The position numbers were made by a program. A stretch of DNA of 64,000 nucleotides from Styela clava (Eukaryota), in the NCBI RefSeq assembly GCF_964204865.1, contig NC_135250.1:9982001-10046000 (forward strand). The letters are read 5' to 3'. The first letter of the stretch is position 1, and each line of letters begins with the position of its first letter. Shown piece after piece: positions 1 through 10,945 of the stretch.

Positions 1-3000
1 AGACGACGCTATTTTTGATCCTGCTTGGCCTCACCTTGAGCTCGTATACCAGTATTTCCTTCATTTTTTAGAAGCGAATGATTTTCAACCAAGCATCGCA
101 AAGAAGTATATGGACACCAGGTAAGAATTGACGATTCAACATGCCTTTTTTATTTTATTTTTTTTTGCAAAATTTGGCTCGTGGGTTTAGCGCATCGTGC
201 TGAGCGTTAGAAATACGCGCCACCGCACTTCTGATTAGGCTACCTTTCGTGGGTTCGCAGGTTCGAATCCCATGCGGGGATAGTTATGTGCGAGAGGATT
301 GCTGGACTCCTCGCCGCCGTAGGGTGGTTCACGTAACCGCTAGTCGGCTGCGGCTTTCTTCACCATCAAGTCCATGTATTCGAAAACAAATAACTGGCTA
401 ACTAATCCCATACCCAACAAGGACTGAATAAATATGTAAATCCTATCCTTTCAGACGCGGGTTAAAATTGCTAAATGATTCCGTTCTAATTAAGATTTGT
501 CACAAGACTGCTCTATGTGTTTGGAAGTGACGATATGCGAGAGAGGGATATACTGAAAACAATCTTACATCGTGTTTATGGAAAGTTTCTGGGACTTCGG
601 GCGACTGTCAGAAGACAAATTAACAACATATTCCTCGCGTATCTATATGATGGACAAGAGTTTACAGGAGTTGCTGAAATCTTGGAAATTCTTGGTAGTA
701 TTATCAATGGATACGTAAGCCCGATGAAGCCAGAACATCATTTATTTTTGGATAAAATTTTGATTCCCCTTCATTCGTCGAAAGACATGGCTTTCTTTCA
801 ACCTCAATTGGTTTATTGTGTCGTTCAATACATGGAAAAAGATCCTAAGACGGCTGCGAATATTTTAAAAGTAGGTGTGCTTACCATTTTGTAAGAAAAT
901 TGCCTTTCTATGTATATTAAAGTATACTTGTCATTACATATAGGATAGGATTTACATATTTATTCCGGGGAAGAGGGAAGCCGATAAGATGGTTTATGCA
1001 TAAGGCGATGAGTCAGTCTATGGACTTGACTTGATGGTGGAGGAAGGCGTAACCGATCAGCGGTTACGTGAACCACCCTACGGCGTCTAGAAGTCCAGCA
1101 ATCCTCTCGCACATAACTTCCCCGCATTCGATTCGAATCTGGGAACTCACGCAGTGTAATTAGCGGTGGCGAGCGTATTATTAACGCTTTGCACGATGCG
1201 CCACACCGCCTATACATAACACTCAATGTACGAAGTAAACTGCGCTGATTCAAATGCCGAGCATAACATAATAGAGATAGAGTTTCTCAACTATCTATGT
1301 AATTCAATTTCAGGGTTTGTTCAAATTTTGGCCAAAAACTTGCAGCACCAAAGAAGTTTTATTTCTCGGCGAATTGGAAGAATTAATTGATGCAATGCAA
1401 CCTGGTGAATTCACAAAAAACCAAAATCTGATACTAAAACAGCTGTCAAAATGCATCACGAGCCATCATTTCCAGGTCTTGTTTATTGTTATTATCTCGA
1501 AGCATAGTGACATATATATATTTAGAGCTTGGCTGAAAGCTATAGGAATCAGCGACCGTTTCTCGTGAGACATGAATTAGTTTAAGTGAATAGAATTTTA
1601 CAATGCAAAAGAATTTTTGACTCATTGTAGATTCTTAGATTGCGATTTCCTATTGATCAAAATAATATCTGCCTGAACAAAAATGACATCACCAAATCCT
1701 ATTCACCAATGAGAATACTATGTTCTAAATATATATACTGTACCTATAAGTTTACGTACGCTACGTCTGCGAGGTAGCCTACTTGATATATATATATAAT
1801 TATTTTGAAATAAACCTTCTATCCTCAAAGAACACTATCGACCAATTATTATGCCTAATAAGGCAAAATTGTGATTTGATTTTGAATAAATATAGCAAAA
1901 TCACTTCTAGGCTATGATTTCCCGCTGTTTAGCACTTAACAATATTTTCGGGGGGGAAATGACCGTGCGAAATATCGCTTGAATCGGAGAGATCAACTAG
2001 AAAATATATAACCTAATTCAGCTTTGGTTGCCATGTAGCCTCCCTGGCCCCAGTGGTTATGAGATTCACGATCTCATCGGAGGGTTACGGATTCGATATC
2101 TCAAGCAAAGACGCTTTTTATTCACGTCCCTCAAATCAATAAAAGAGTACCGCCGTTGTAGTTGTGAAAAGATTCAGATAATAAATTTATTTAATTCAGG
2201 CAAATATTGGATCCTATTCTGCAACGATCATATATTTGATTGGTATCAAATTGAGTGTAATCCACAAAAATATCACAAGCTCTGCTTTATATCTAAAATC
2301 TGACATAAAATCCCAAGTAATACCTGCATACATCCATTTTCAGGTTGCCGAACGGTCATTATATTTCTTTGATAATGAGTATATTATGAGCCTGGTGGAA
2401 GTAAATGCAGACGAATGTTTTCCTTTGGTATTGCATTGTCTCAAATCTATTTCTCTGGAGCATTGGAACATGTCTATATCGACGTTAGCTGCTACTGTAC
2501 TCCAGACTTTTAAAGATTCAAATCCGGACGTTTTTTATAAAGTGCTCGGCCTACCGCGCCCTCCACCTAAGCCAAGATCGATTGCACAATCCATGTGGAT
2601 GAAGGCGGCGGGATTAAGCCGCAAAGCTTGAATATATTTCTTTTCGTAAAGTTGTTGAATTAAAATCGAAATATGAAAATTTCTATTGATATTTCTAATA
2701 ATTGAAGGTAAATTGAAAAATGAAGGCTTAAGGAAACATATTGAATAAAAGAGAGCGATATTTGATTATTTGGACACGAAGACAAAACGAAGTAGTACTG
2801 GTATGCAATCGGTCACAGTAGACTGCCGGTACCGCAGCCTTCACGATTGCGCAATTTTTGATGACGTCATCGCACACAAAAAAACGTATCCCATAGAGCC
2901 CACAGAAATTTTTTGAAATAAATAAAAGTAATAGCCTTCTAAGGAAAAATACAATCTTTAACCACTGAATATTTCAAAGCAATTGGTCCAGTAGAGAGTA

Positions 3001-9000: not shown

Positions 9001-10945
9001 CTTTGTATTGTGAGTGACGTCCCTCAAGAATAATTCTCAAGTTGCGACTCCCTGTGAAAAACGTCTCGAATATTTTTCAATAAAAGACCTTTTTTTGCAT
9101 TGATTTTTATTTGAACGACAAACGTCAGTGAAATCACTTTCAAGGATATGATTTGTATTCGCTTCTTTTGTCATTGGACCTAGAGGTGAATAGTGAGAGC
9201 CGCACGCATTTCTCTTTCAACATTTACCCAACATCGATATTTCGTCCTAATTACGGCCATGGAGGAAAAACTACGTGATTCCAAAGTCCAAATAGTTTCC
9301 ACCAGACTTGCAAATTTTATTTTTAGACTTTTCTTGTTAAGTATTACTATTACGCTCGACCAGTTTTGCAGTATAACTTCATATTTAGACTTTTTCTACG
9401 TACCGCGAAAAAGATACAATTTCACAAAATATTTGCGGAGCCCTAGCAAAATTGAAACGACGCACTTGGGCGTCCCGACGCCCACTTTGAAAACCACGGC
9501 ACTAATATCCGAGACTAGCAATCGAGTTTGCATGACCAAATATTTTCTGATTCTCCTCCCAAATGTAAAGTAAAATCAGCAAAAACAAAAAATAGAAAAA
9601 TGAAATTCTAACCGACGTATTCCGCAGGTTTAGCCAAGTACATAATATCCCACTGTCGCTTCAGTGTGTTATCGAGATACCATGGATAAGAAACGATTAC
9701 ATCTACCGATGCATCGGTTAAATCTCCTACTTTATCCTCCGGATGATCCACTGTCCAAACCTCAATTGTTGCGGGAGTCTAAATTTAATACAAATTTTGT
9801 TTCAGATGAATTTTGTGTTAGAACCGACTGTACACATATATAATAGTGATGGTCTCAATAGGTTTGGCGTGATAAATGACCGTATTGGGTCAAAGGTCAT
9901 TGAAATGCGGAAGCGGTTTATTCTGTCTGGTCCACCGAACTGGAAATATACATCTCTGTGACCTGTGCTCTGTAGTCTATATTAGCAAATGCCAAGTTAA
10001 AAATACTTCTCACTTCCGTGTATCCATGAGAAAACACATCATCCCATGCAATAGGTTTCAGGTTTAATTTCCTTGCTTTTTGTAAAATGCCTTCAATGAA
10101 CATTCGATGAATTTCTTTTTCGGTTGTTCGACTCTTTACCATATATTTACGAAATTCAGAACTAGTAAGCCTGAAATTTGTTAAAAACCAAATAATACTA
10201 AAGTTTCAAATGTTAATAACACTTTACCATTTAAAAAAATTAAATTGAGGCGTTCGTTTGAATCACTAAAACGAGATTTATATTCAATTCCATGATATAA
10301 GCCAAGGGAACGAACAAGCCAAGCTAGACTTCAGATTATCACGTTAATAAAAAAAATCGTGACTGTTGTATATATGTTTTGAATGCGGTTAATGTATTAT
10401 TTCACTACTACTTTATTTGTAAAACATACTATTTTAAAACATGAAATAAATCATTAAAACATATAGATAACAAATACAGTGGGGTAGTAGACATAGAATT
10501 TGAGCAATAAATCTTCAACTTCAAAAGTCTTACGTGGTCATCGAGACCTGAAGTTTTATTGTTCAAGCGGCTCATTATTATTATGCTACAAAATGAGTGA
10601 TATGGATTTCTTTTATCTGTCGCTGAAGTTTTTCTATGTCGTTTTTCTTTGCAGTTTTGCAGAAAGCTTGGCCATATCCTGATAAACAATTTCGATGACC
10701 ATAAACAACAATTGTGAAGGCTACTTACCAACATTCGTGAGATATTTCATCTCCTCCTATGTGTATGTATTCATCCGGAAACAAATTTTTAAGTTCAGAG
10801 TAAAGTGCTCCTATAAACGTATAAACTTCCGGGTTCAAAGGGTCGAGTGTTCCCTTAGAGTCGTCCCGAACACCATTTGCTAAGATGTAAATAAAAAGTT
10901 CGTAATGTGTGTGTGTGTGTGTGTTAGGAAGTAAAACTACTGTCA

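What the first reader, a model, noticed from the sequence alone, without database searches (positions are those of the whole stretch)
693..9262. One tandem duplication gives two convergent genes (PP2A-B56 and hexosaminidase) a second set of 3' exons each
Seen: the 4.3-kb unit spans the tail-to-tail junction of B56 (+) and Hex (-). The order is now B56 5' > [B56 3' | Hex 3' copy] [B56 3' copy | Hex 3'] < Hex 5'. Both native genes stay intact. Each has a distal, same-strand spare set of terminal exons with intact splice sites, stop codon and AATAAA (B56: 5614-5775 and 6585-6872; Hex: 4077-4269 and 3669-3720). The phases permit B56 donor 870 > acceptor 5614 and Hex donor 9613 > acceptor 4269. Inference: this could be a reciprocal alternative-last-exon switch. 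Using the distal exons forces transcription through the antisense of the partner gene's terminal exons, so the two genes could be coupled by transcriptional collision or by dsRNA/endo-siRNA against the partner mRNA.
Basis: partly seen in the sequence, partly recalled or inferred. Interest (0 to 1): 0.75.

Follow-up and report, generated by a model that had tools for sequence, protein, structure and literature searches.

The report
Tandem duplication across two gene tails
A 4.3-kb stretch covering the facing tail ends of two sea-squirt genes occurs twice in a row; both genes stay whole, and the extra end pieces are most likely unused, so this is an ordinary structural variant unless the assembly doubled the two parental alleles.

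Summary
Window 693-4991 and 4989-9262 are head-to-tail copies with 107 mismatches in 4217 aligned columns and 12 indels. They are joined seamlessly at a 3-bp TGG microhomology, and the window has no N. The window is Styela clava. One breakpoint lies inside a coding exon of a B56-family PP2A subunit gene (+). The other lies in the second-to-last intron of a convergent GH20 beta-hexosaminidase gene (-). Both genes keep a full exon set. Each also gains a promoter-less, same-strand spare set of terminal exons with intact splice sites, phases, stops and AATAAA.

Nothing supports the proposed reciprocal last-exon switch or antisense coupling. The only B56 protein model found uses the proximal exons. 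The spare Hex exons encode the same peptide as the used ones. The duplication moves the used terminal exons from 1,034 to 5,275 bp apart.

One result was unexpected: coding differences between the copies look filtered by selection. Hex has 4 synonymous and 0 nonsynonymous differences. Five of 6 B56 amino-acid differences fall at sites that also vary in the orthologue. Non-coding divergence is very uneven (1.3-9.7%). This suits copies derived from two alleles, either in a young real duplication or in an assembly doubling. Reads are needed to decide. Tandem duplications with breakpoints in facing genes are a described class in Drosophila.

The parts
693..4991 (.). Copy 1 of the tandem unit (4299 bp). 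It holds the used 3' exons of B56 and the spare 3' exons of Hex.
4989..9262 (.). Copy 2 of the tandem unit (4274 bp). It holds the spare 3' exons of B56 and the proximal 3' exons of Hex.
4989..4991 (.). Junction: TGG shared by the end of copy 1 and the start of copy 2 (3-bp microhomology). No gap and no repeat at either breakpoint.
   Evidence: chance of 3 bp or more is about 0.05-0.06
1..120 (+). B56 exon (P0001 residues 118-157), cut by the window edge. Donor AG|gtaaga at 120/121. The 5' part of the gene (residues 1-117) lies outside the window.
495..870 (+). B56 exon A (P0001 residues 157-282). The left breakpoint of the duplication (693) lies inside it, at residue 224.
1314..1475 (+). B56 exon B, proximal (used) copy
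2344..2634 (+). B56 last coding exon with TGA stop, proximal copy. It matches P0001 exactly. AATAAA at 2744, 2917 and 2921.
4989..5166 (+). Truncated copy of B56 exon A. It has a donor but no acceptor and no in-frame start before the junction. 1 nonsynonymous difference (N/S).
5614..5775 (+). Spare B56 exon B, identical in all 162 bp to 1314-1475
6585..6875 (+). Spare B56 last exon with stop. 8 differences from 2344-2634 (5 nonsynonymous, 3 synonymous). AATAAA at 6985, 7158 and 7162.
9613..9778 (-). Hex exon X, the last exon outside the duplication. Its donor is at 9613. The right breakpoint (9262) lies in the intron that follows.
8314..8506 (-). Hex exon Y, proximal copy
7910..7961 (-). Hex last coding exon Z with stop, proximal copy. 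AATAAA on the minus strand at 7888, 7661 and 7438.
4077..4269 (-). Spare Hex exon Y. 2 differences from the proximal copy, both synonymous.
3669..3720 (-). Spare Hex exon Z with stop. 2 differences, both synonymous. AATAAA on the minus strand at 3647, 3420 and 3197.
9779..15811 (-). Upstream part of the Hex gene: 11 further exons between 10014 and 15811, as mapped from the NCBI Styela clava protein P0003. The start codon is at 15811.

Best explanation
This is a real 4.3-kb head-to-tail tandem duplication in the Styela clava genome. It was made by a non-homologous, microhomology-primed join (end joining or a replication template switch). The join links a point inside a coding exon of a B56-family PP2A regulatory-subunit gene to a point in the second-to-last intron of the convergent lysosomal-type beta-hexosaminidase gene.

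Both breakpoints lie in genes that face each other, so the duplicated material contains only promoter-less 3' parts. B56 keeps an unbroken exon series ending in copy 1, and Hex keeps one ending in copy 2. Each spare set sits beyond the parent gene's own terminal exon and poly(A) hexamers. The spare exons are most likely passengers, reached at most by occasional read-through, with no regulatory role.

The duplication is probably young and perhaps still polymorphic. Its two copies probably descend from, or have exchanged with, two different alleles. That would explain why they differ by an allele-like amount and pattern and show no decay in the spare exons.

Shown: the repeat, the junction, the gene identities, the exon anatomy and the substitution pattern. 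Inferred: that the duplication is real in the animal, how it arose, that the copies have an allelic origin, and that the spare exons are silent.
For: Structure: two collinear copies and a seamless junction with 3-bp microhomology. There is no repeat at the breakpoints and no N in the 64 kb. According to the review PMC2583991 (passages read), 2-5 nt of microhomology is the usual mark of non-recurrent duplications.

[quoted passage not shown] There is no gap here. The copies differ at 2.5% of sites plus 12 indels, so this is not a same-read stutter.

Both genes whole: NCBI's S. clava Hex protein P0003 maps exactly onto 14 exons, with 546 of 549 residues wholly inside exons. B56 model P0001 residues 118-431 map exactly using copy-1 exons.

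Passenger status: P0001 carries the proximal last exon at 100% and the distal one at 94.9%. No second B56 cluster turned up among 99 candidates. The spare Hex exons change no residue.

Allele-like copies:
- Overall divergence is 2.54%, and non-exon divergence is 94 of 3341 (2.8%). The published k-mer heterozygosity is 1.72% (PMC7540406, section 3.1.1 read).
- Hex has 4 synonymous and 0 nonsynonymous differences. P = 0.005 if both copies were free and 0.032 if one were free.
- The orthologue P0002 differs from both copies at 5 of the 6 B56 amino-acid differences, although it matches P0001 at 157 of 207 duplicated residues (binomial P = 0.004).
- Non-coding divergence is uneven: 25 of 1969 on the left, 40 of 1074 on the right (Fisher P = 2e-5). 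Across five non-coding segments, chi-square P = 4e-9.
Against: No reads, depth, second assembly or transcript data could be consulted, so the reality of the junction rests on indirect argument.

The allele-like divergence and the selection-filtered coding differences are exactly what an assembly doubling of two haplotypes predicts. The published assembly of this species is a FALCON long-read assembly of a 1.72%-heterozygous animal, and no haplotig purging was mentioned in the passages I read. I did not establish which assembly the window comes from.

The 3-bp microhomology alone is weak, since chance gives about 0.05-0.06.

An origin from two alleles (exchange between homologues) is an added assumption. 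For microhomology-type duplications I know of no rate for it.

The substitution tests rest on 13 coding differences and were chosen after seeing the data. The B56 count on its own (6 nonsynonymous, 3 synonymous) looks neutral (P = 0.45). It is unlikely for two constrained alleles (P = 0.005-0.056 for omega 0.1-0.2). The family-wide conservation rank test is only borderline (P = 0.053).

Silence of the spare exons is inferred, not shown. NCBI calls the Hex protein 'isoform X1', so at least one other isoform is annotated that I could not see.
Confidence: 0.55

Rival explanations
1. Assembly artefact (false heterotype duplication). Copy 1 and copy 2 are the two parental alleles of one single-copy 4.3-kb segment, laid end to end by the assembler or by a gap-closing step. 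The animal has no spare exons at all.
For: The copies differ by 2.54% plus 12 indels, the same order as the published 1.72% heterozygosity. Coding differences look filtered by selection in both genes (Hex 4 synonymous, 0 nonsynonymous; B56 differences at labile sites). Non-coding divergence varies from 1.3% to 3.7% between the halves, as allelic divergence does along a recombining region. The published assembly of this species used FALCON on PacBio RSII reads plus Hi-C. Heterozygosity-driven false duplications remain at 2.3% of the assembly even in a curated long-read assembly, mostly on the same scaffold (PMC9516828). [quoted passage not shown]
Against: There is no N between or near the copies in the 64 kb, whereas a gap is the usual hallmark. 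By my reasoning (not a test), two reads that overlap over 4.3 kb of alleles would be laid on top of each other in an overlap-layout contig, not end to end. A seamless tandem therefore needs a junction-bearing read or a later joining step. B56 shows 6 nonsynonymous differences in 210 codons, which is high for two alleles of a constrained gene (P = 0.005-0.056 for omega 0.1-0.2).
Confidence: 0.27
2. Both spare exon sets are really used as alternative terminal exons. Their use drives transcription through the antisense of the partner's terminal exons, so the two genes are coupled by polymerase collision or by dsRNA/endo-siRNA.
For: All splice sites, phases, stops and poly(A) hexamers of the spare sets are intact. 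The spare Hex exons carry only synonymous differences (4 of 4). The B56 differences avoid conserved sites, which is what purifying selection on both copies would give. Exon divergence, at 13 of 876, is below non-exon divergence, at 94 of 3341 (Fisher P = 0.029). Overlapping 3' ends of convergent genes can interfere in other organisms (PMC3900390, search listing and abstract only).
Against: No transcript evidence exists. The only B56 model found uses proximal exons. A Hex switch would give the same protein, so nothing obvious could be selected. The proximal acceptors are identical or equivalent and are transcribed first. The duplication widens the distance between the used terminal exons from 1,034 to 5,275 bp, which should lessen collision in cis. 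The selection-like pattern is explained equally well by allelic origin or by an artefact. This class of duplication is regarded as not creating new genes.
Confidence: 0.05
3. A real but older duplication that began as two identical copies on one chromatid. The 2.5% divergence has built up since then, and the spare exon sets drift freely as pseudo-exons.
For: This is the textbook default for a partial tandem duplicate. The B56 counts alone (6 nonsynonymous, 3 synonymous) fit neutrality (P = 0.45). Exon divergence of 1.5% against non-exon divergence of 2.8% is near what one constrained plus one free copy would give (the expectation is my arithmetic). All transposon-like sequence is shared by both copies.
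Against: No frameshift, stop or splice-site loss has occurred in any of the 5 spare exon pieces. Hex has 0 nonsynonymous among 4 differences (P = 0.032 under this model). The B56 differences avoid sites conserved with the orthologue (P = 0.004). The two tests combined give P = 0.0012. Neutral divergence since one event should be even, but the non-coding rates differ threefold between the halves and reach 9.7% in the transposon-like segment. The longest identical run (239 bp) is not unusual (P = 0.15), so recent gene conversion is not evident either.
Confidence: 0.13

Closest known systems
Segregating tandem duplications with both breakpoints in genes that face one another (Drosophila yakuba and D. 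simulans survey, PMC4069613)
   Same: A head-to-tail duplicate of a few kb, with one breakpoint in each of two convergent genes. Only promoter-less 3' fragments are copied, and both parent genes stay whole (here; for the paper's passage).
   Different: Here the copies already differ by 2.5% and the host is a tunicate. The frequency in the population is unknown. The Drosophila cases were called from read pairs, whereas this one is seen only in an assembly.
False heterotype duplication in genome assemblies (PMC9516828)
   Same: Two adjacent near-identical copies differ by about the heterozygosity of the species, partial genes are duplicated next to themselves, and the source is a long-read assembly of a heterozygous animal.
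   Different: There is no assembly gap between the copies. The other defining marks (haploid depth, single-copy k-mers, discordant reads) could not be tested.
Alternative splicing born from tandem exon duplication (mutually exclusive or substituted homologous exons; PMC9741552 and PMC9013439, search listing and abstracts only)
   Same: Duplicated exons sit on the same strand with intact splice sites and compatible phases, so either copy could in principle be spliced in.
   Different: Known cases duplicate internal exons inside one intron, and both copies sit upstream of the single terminator. Here whole terminal-exon sets, with their own stops and poly(A) hexamers, are duplicated beyond the first terminator. 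The Hex copies encode the same peptide. No transcripts are known.
Convergent gene pairs with interfering or overlapping 3' ends (cis natural antisense pairs; PMC3900390 and PMC3032780, search listing and abstracts only)
   Same: The two genes lie tail to tail with stops only 1,034 bp apart within one unit. Read-through of one gene would be antisense to the other.
   Different: Overlap of the transcripts was not shown here. The duplication places spare terminators between the used 3' ends and so increases their distance to 5,275 bp.

Membership tests
PP2A regulatory subunit B56 (Pfam PF01603) | Match to the B56 profile above the gathering score, collinear along the gene | tested here: met
   The exon pieces match profile positions 138-262, 264-317 and 318-384 with 162, 65 and 59 bits (cut-off 25). 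The spare last exon scores 57 bits. Database model P0001 matches human B56 alpha chain 6nts_B at E 3e-139.
PP2A regulatory subunit B56 (Pfam PF01603) | Binds the PP2A A-C core and LxxIxE substrates | not testable with these tools
   No binding test was run. The protein is a divergent member: the best of 150 listed library representatives are at most 56% identical, and only one close orthologue was found (P0002, 69% identical in the last exon).
Glycoside hydrolase family 20 beta-hexosaminidase (Pfam PF00728) | Match to the GH20 catalytic-domain profile, plus the N-terminal GH20 domains | tested here: met
   4 of the 6 Hex exon pieces sent match PF00728 at 25-51 bits (cut-off 22.3). P0003 carries PF14845, PF00728 and PF02838 (precomputed). 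It matches human HEXA chain 2gjx_A at E 3e-111.
Glycoside hydrolase family 20 beta-hexosaminidase (Pfam PF00728) | Catalytic Asp-Glu pair | not tested
   P0003 contains the string HIGGDE. That this is the catalytic motif is recalled, not tested here. It lies outside the duplicated part.
Tandem duplication with breakpoints in two facing genes | Direct head-to-tail repeat with a single novel junction | tested here: met
Tandem duplication with breakpoints in two facing genes | Each breakpoint lies inside a different gene, and the genes are convergent | tested here: met
   693 lies in B56 exon 495-870 (+). 9262 lies in the Hex intron between 9613 and 8506 (-).
Tandem duplication with breakpoints in two facing genes | The junction is present in the organism's DNA (reads or PCR) | not testable with these tools
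   No read data are available. A search with the junction-spanning reading frame found 2 proteins among 3 candidates, both covering only the B56 part.
False heterotype duplication (assembly artefact) | Assembly gap between the two copies | tested here: not met
   There is no N anywhere in the 64-kb window.
False heterotype duplication (assembly artefact) | Haploid read depth, single-copy heterozygous k-mers and discordant reads | not testable with these tools
   No reads are available.
False heterotype duplication (assembly artefact) | Copies differ like alleles (amount near heterozygosity, coding differences filtered by selection) | tested here: inconclusive
   Divergence is 2.54% against a heterozygosity of 1.72%. 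Hex has 4 synonymous and 0 nonsynonymous differences, and the B56 differences lie at labile sites. But the B56 ratio of 6 nonsynonymous to 3 synonymous is high for alleles, and the same pattern fits a real duplication born from two alleles.
Alternative terminal exons derived from exon duplication | Intact splice sites and compatible phases in both copies | tested here: met
Alternative terminal exons derived from exon duplication | Both copies are found in mature transcripts | not testable with these tools
   No transcript data are available.
Alternative terminal exons derived from exon duplication | The alternative copies give different protein isoforms | tested here: not met
   For Hex the two copies encode identical peptides. 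For B56 they differ at 6 of 210 codons. The feature therefore fails for one of the two genes.

The most novel reading that the evidence does not exclude
Both spare sets are real, transcribed and kept by purifying selection. That would explain why they show no disabling change, why Hex has only synonymous differences, and why the B56 differences sit only at labile sites. One duplication would then have given two convergent genes reciprocal alternative terminal exons. Using them sends each polymerase through the antisense of the partner's terminal exons, which would link the output of a PP2A regulatory subunit and a lysosomal hexosaminidase. A tunicate-specific twist is possible. Tunicates use spliced-leader trans-splicing (recalled; the abstract of PMC4138322 names tunicates among taxa with operon-like organisation). 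The unpaired acceptor at 5614 on a read-through transcript could therefore be trans-spliced, giving a promoter-less B56 C-terminal fragment an mRNA of its own.
Probability: 0.05. Interest if true: 0.6.

Novelty: new member of a known kind. Interest (0 to 1): 0.18.

Why it matters
Taken as it most likely is, this is one more partial tandem duplication of a kind that population surveys find by the dozen. It changes neither protein. Its practical value is as a caution: gene-family or exon counts from this region should not be trusted until read depth and junction reads are checked.

The one point worth a specialist's glance is that the two copies differ the way alleles do and do not look like a gene and its decaying copy. 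If the junction is real, the locus would be a clean natural example of a tandem duplication born from two haplotypes in a highly heterozygous animal. Such a duplication would have copies that are 'old' at birth, which would mislead any dating of duplications by copy divergence in such species.

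Tried and rejected
1. Looking for a protein isoform with the distal B56 exon. The search with the proximal last exon among longer proteins gave 2 hits among 99 candidates: P0001, this genome's model with the proximal exon, and P0002, an orthologue.

2. Independent support for the junction. 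The stop-to-stop frame across 4989 (4876-5187) was searched among proteins of similar length. It gave 2 hits among 3 candidates, both covering only about 60% of the query, the B56 part. This carries no information either way.

3. Deciding which copy carries the derived amino acids, using the orthologue. Only 1 of 6 sites was informative (residue 393: copy 2 keeps the orthologue's E, copy 1 has K). At the other 5 the orthologue differs from both copies. The attempt failed as polarisation but gave the labile-site result.

4. Recent gene conversion as the cause of the low-divergence stretches. The longest identical run is 239 bp. Simulation gives a mean of 197 and P = 0.15, so this is not supported.

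5. CpG decay as the cause of the 9.7% divergence in the transposon-like segment 960-1260. Only 1 of 29 mismatches there is a CpG transition, so this is rejected. The cause stays unexplained.

6. RNA genes. ARAGORN found 0 tRNA genes and Rfam gave 0 matches at gathering scores in the whole window.

7. Collections. No DNA collection offered here holds tunicate genomes. Genome contigs is bacterial and archaeal, and phages, plasmids and E. coli are irrelevant, so I ran none of those scans.

8. Paper supplements are closed. Tables S2 and S4 of PMC7540406 (assembly statistics and BUSCO results, which may include a duplicated fraction) could bear on the haplotype-duplication rival and were not seen.

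9. No structure prediction, complex prediction or atlas search was run, because both families are well known and none of these would bear on the question.

10. The window is not human.

11. Spliced models. I searched the exons one by one and joined no exons myself, so the joined step was left out.

Full report
WHAT IS THERE. A self-comparison of the window finds one large repeat. Region 693-1956 matches 4989-6248 (95.99% over 1271 columns), and 2059-4991 matches 6300-9262 (96.43% over 2967 columns). Both have E = 0, and no further copy lies in the 64 kb (one search shows the same families). A global alignment of 693-4991 with 4989-9262 has 107 mismatches in 4217 aligned columns (2.54%; 68 transitions, 39 transversions) and 12 indel events. 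The largest indels are a 67-bp stretch present only in copy 1 (1992-2058), 23 bp present only in copy 2, and a G-run that is 16 bp longer in copy 2. The window has no N.

The junction is seamless. The left boundary reads GAAATTCT|TGGTAGTATT, the right boundary ACGGCCATGG|AGGAAAA, and the join ACGGCCA-TGG-TAGTATT. The two ends therefore share three bases. A simple model gives a 5-6% chance of three or more shared bases. No repeat sits at either breakpoint.

THE ORGANISM AND THE GENES. Searched on its own, the duplicated Hex exon is 100% identical to a protein that NCBI names 'beta-hexosaminidase subunit alpha-like isoform X1 [Styela clava]' (P0003, 549 aa, seen on a 32,746,820-bp contig). P0003 maps exactly onto 14 minus-strand exons from 15811 down to 7913, with 546 of 549 residues wholly inside exons. 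Its last two exons match both copies. The window is therefore from the ascidian Styela clava and is not human.

The plus-strand gene is a B56-family PP2A regulatory subunit. Its exon pieces match Pfam PF01603 positions 138-262, 264-317 and 318-384. The 5' part of the gene is outside the window. P0001 resembles human B56 alpha (E 3e-139), and P0003 resembles human HEXA (E 3e-111). This B56 is a divergent member: the best of 150 listed library representatives are at most 56% identical, and only one close orthologue turned up (P0002).

I searched exon by exon and did not join exons into a model of my own. P0001 and P0003 are database models used by id.

ANATOMY. The B56 exons are: up to 120, 495-870, 1314-1475, and 2344-2634 with the stop. 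The left breakpoint (693) falls inside exon 495-870, at residue 224. Copy 2 therefore starts with a truncated exon piece, 4989-5166, that keeps its donor but has no acceptor. The reading frame upstream of the junction has no methionine. The spare exons 5614-5775 and 6585-6875 follow.

Hex exon X is 9613-9778. The right breakpoint (9262) lies in the intron after it. The proximal exons are Y 8314-8506 and Z 7910-7961, and the spare copies are 4077-4269 and 3669-3720. The 20 nt before each B56 acceptor are identical between the copies. The Hex acceptors differ by two pyrimidine changes (exon Y) and one deleted T (exon Z). All donors are GT, and the phases are the same in both copies. The three AATAAA hexamers on each strand between the stops are kept in both copies.

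WHAT THE DUPLICATION DOES TO THE TWO GENES. Both genes keep an unbroken exon series, B56 through copy 1 and Hex through copy 2. The spare sets lie beyond each gene's own last exon and poly(A) hexamers. Within one unit the two stops are 1,034 bp apart (2635-3668). After the duplication, the used B56 stop (2634) and the proximal Hex stop (7910) are 5,275 bp apart, with a spare terminator region of each gene in between. If the two polymerases ever met in the single-copy state, the duplication would make that rarer in cis. Antisense pairing in trans stays possible in principle, because the exon copies differ by 0 to 3.9%.

IS THE DISTAL SET USED? I found no evidence that it is. P0001 carries the proximal last exon exactly and matches the distal one at 94.9%. 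No other B56 cluster appeared among 99 candidates. The Hex copies encode the same 63 + 16 whole codons that I compared, so no protein record can tell them apart. NCBI's label 'isoform X1' shows that another isoform is annotated, but I could not see it. Transcripts, small RNAs and reads are out of reach of these tools.

AN UNEXPECTED PATTERN. If the spare exons had drifted freely since a duplication that made identical copies, their differences should hit codons at random. They do not.
- Hex has 4 differences in 240 compared coding bases, all synonymous. P = 0.005 if both copies were free, and 0.032 if one were free and one constrained.
- B56 has 9 differences, 6 nonsynonymous and 3 synonymous, which is neutral-looking on its own (P = 0.45).
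- However, at 5 of the 6 changed residues the orthologue P0002 differs from both copies, although P0002 equals P0001 at 157 of 207 duplicated residues (binomial P = 0.004).
- At the sixth site, the copy that keeps the orthologue's residue is copy 2, not the used copy 1.
- Across 139 relatives the six sites rank 13, 30, 46, 72, 100 and 129 of 207 in conservation (one-sided P = 0.053).
- Combined, the two main tests reject free decay of one copy at P = 0.0012.
These tests rest on 13 differences and were chosen after looking at the data.

No spare exon has a frameshift, stop or lost splice site. Non-coding divergence is very uneven. It is 25 of 1969 (1.3%) left of the Hex stop with the transposon-like segment left out, 40 of 1074 (3.7%) in the Hex part (Fisher P = 2e-5), and 29 of 298 (9.7%) in the transposon-like segment 960-1260. 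That last figure is not CpG decay, since only 1 of 29 mismatches there is a CpG transition. Across five non-coding segments, chi-square P = 4e-9.

In amount and in pattern the copies thus look like two alleles of functional genes. The published k-mer heterozygosity of the species is 1.72% (PMC7540406, section 3.1.1 read).

THREE WAYS TO GET ALLELE-LIKE COPIES.
(a) The assembly laid the two parental alleles end to end. The published assembly of this species used FALCON on PacBio RSII reads plus Hi-C. [quoted passage not shown] Here there is no gap. By my reasoning, an overlap-layout contig would stack two overlapping alleles, not abut them. I did not establish which assembly the window comes from.
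(b) The duplication is real and arose by an exchange or template switch between the two homologues, or has since exchanged with alleles. The copies were then already diverged, and already filtered by selection, at birth. Duplication by exchange between homologues is established for repeat-mediated events, and 2-5 nt of microhomology marks the non-recurrent kind (PMC2583991, passages read). How often the microhomology kind involves the homologue I do not know.
I rate a real duplication with passenger exons at 0.55, plus 0.13 for the plain identical-at-birth version. I rate the artefact at 0.27 and the functional reading at 0.05.

COMPARISON WITH WHAT IS KNOWN. Population surveys in Drosophila list exactly this class. 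[quoted passage not shown]

Exon duplication as a source of alternative splicing is also known (PMC9741552 and PMC9013439, listing and abstracts only). Those cases concern internal exons upstream of a single terminator and give different protein segments. Here whole terminal sets lie beyond the first terminator, and one gene's copies are identical in protein. Interference between convergent genes through their 3' regions is described in yeast and plants (PMC3900390 and PMC3032780, listing and abstracts only).

I ran no search aimed at this particular locus, so I cannot say whether it has been described. The seven literature searches I ran were on the species' assembly and on general mechanisms.

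VERDICT. The functional part is unsupported and a priori unlikely. The feature is a new member of a known and common kind, or an assembly doubling. Interest is low (0.18). The allele-like state of the copies is the only point worth following, and one read-mapping experiment settles it.

Noticed in passing
window 960-1260 and 5256-5560; also 183-376: A GC-rich (49.5%) transposon-like segment sits in the B56 intron, with an inverted relative in the previous intron (arms 277-372 and 1028-1123, 88% complementary). ARAGORN calls no tRNA there. Between the two copies of the duplication this segment differs at 29 of 298 sites (9.7%), against 1.3% in the surrounding non-coding DNA. Only 1 of the 29 is a CpG transition. 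The cause is unknown; exchange with other copies of the element elsewhere in the genome is one idea.
   Followed up: partly
window 1950-1956 vs about 6242-6265; 1992-2058: A run of 7 G in copy 1 is about 23 G in copy 2, and 67 bp just downstream are present only in copy 1. Long homopolymers are error-prone in long-read assemblies, so the length may not be real.
   Followed up: no
window 24441-24601, 37080-37310, 44166-44389; 23856-24006 and 47263-47415: Two further short interspersed repeat families lie elsewhere in the window, 83-88% identical between copies and in both orientations.
   Followed up: no
window 18765-19331 (+): An open frame of 188 aa matches the first half of the rhodopsin-family receptor profile 7tm_1 (E 3e-29) and contains a DRY-type motif. 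It is probably an exon of an amine-receptor-like GPCR gene.
   Followed up: partly
window 51709-56629 (-): Long open frames (194, 183 and 784 aa) carry C2H2 zinc fingers (PF00096, PF13465). They probably belong to one large zinc-finger transcription-factor gene. GC rises to 0.38-0.40 here.
   Followed up: partly
B56 gene, window 1-2634 (protein P0001): This B56 is an unusually divergent family member. The best of 150 listed representatives of a 1.84-billion-protein library are at most 56% identical, and a word-based search with its last exon found a single orthologue (69% identical). It may be a lineage-specific paralogue and not the canonical B56.
   Followed up: partly
Hex gene, window 7910-15811 (-): NCBI labels the matching protein 'isoform X1', so at least one more isoform is annotated for this gene. 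Whether any transcript variant ends in the distal exons could not be seen.
   Followed up: no
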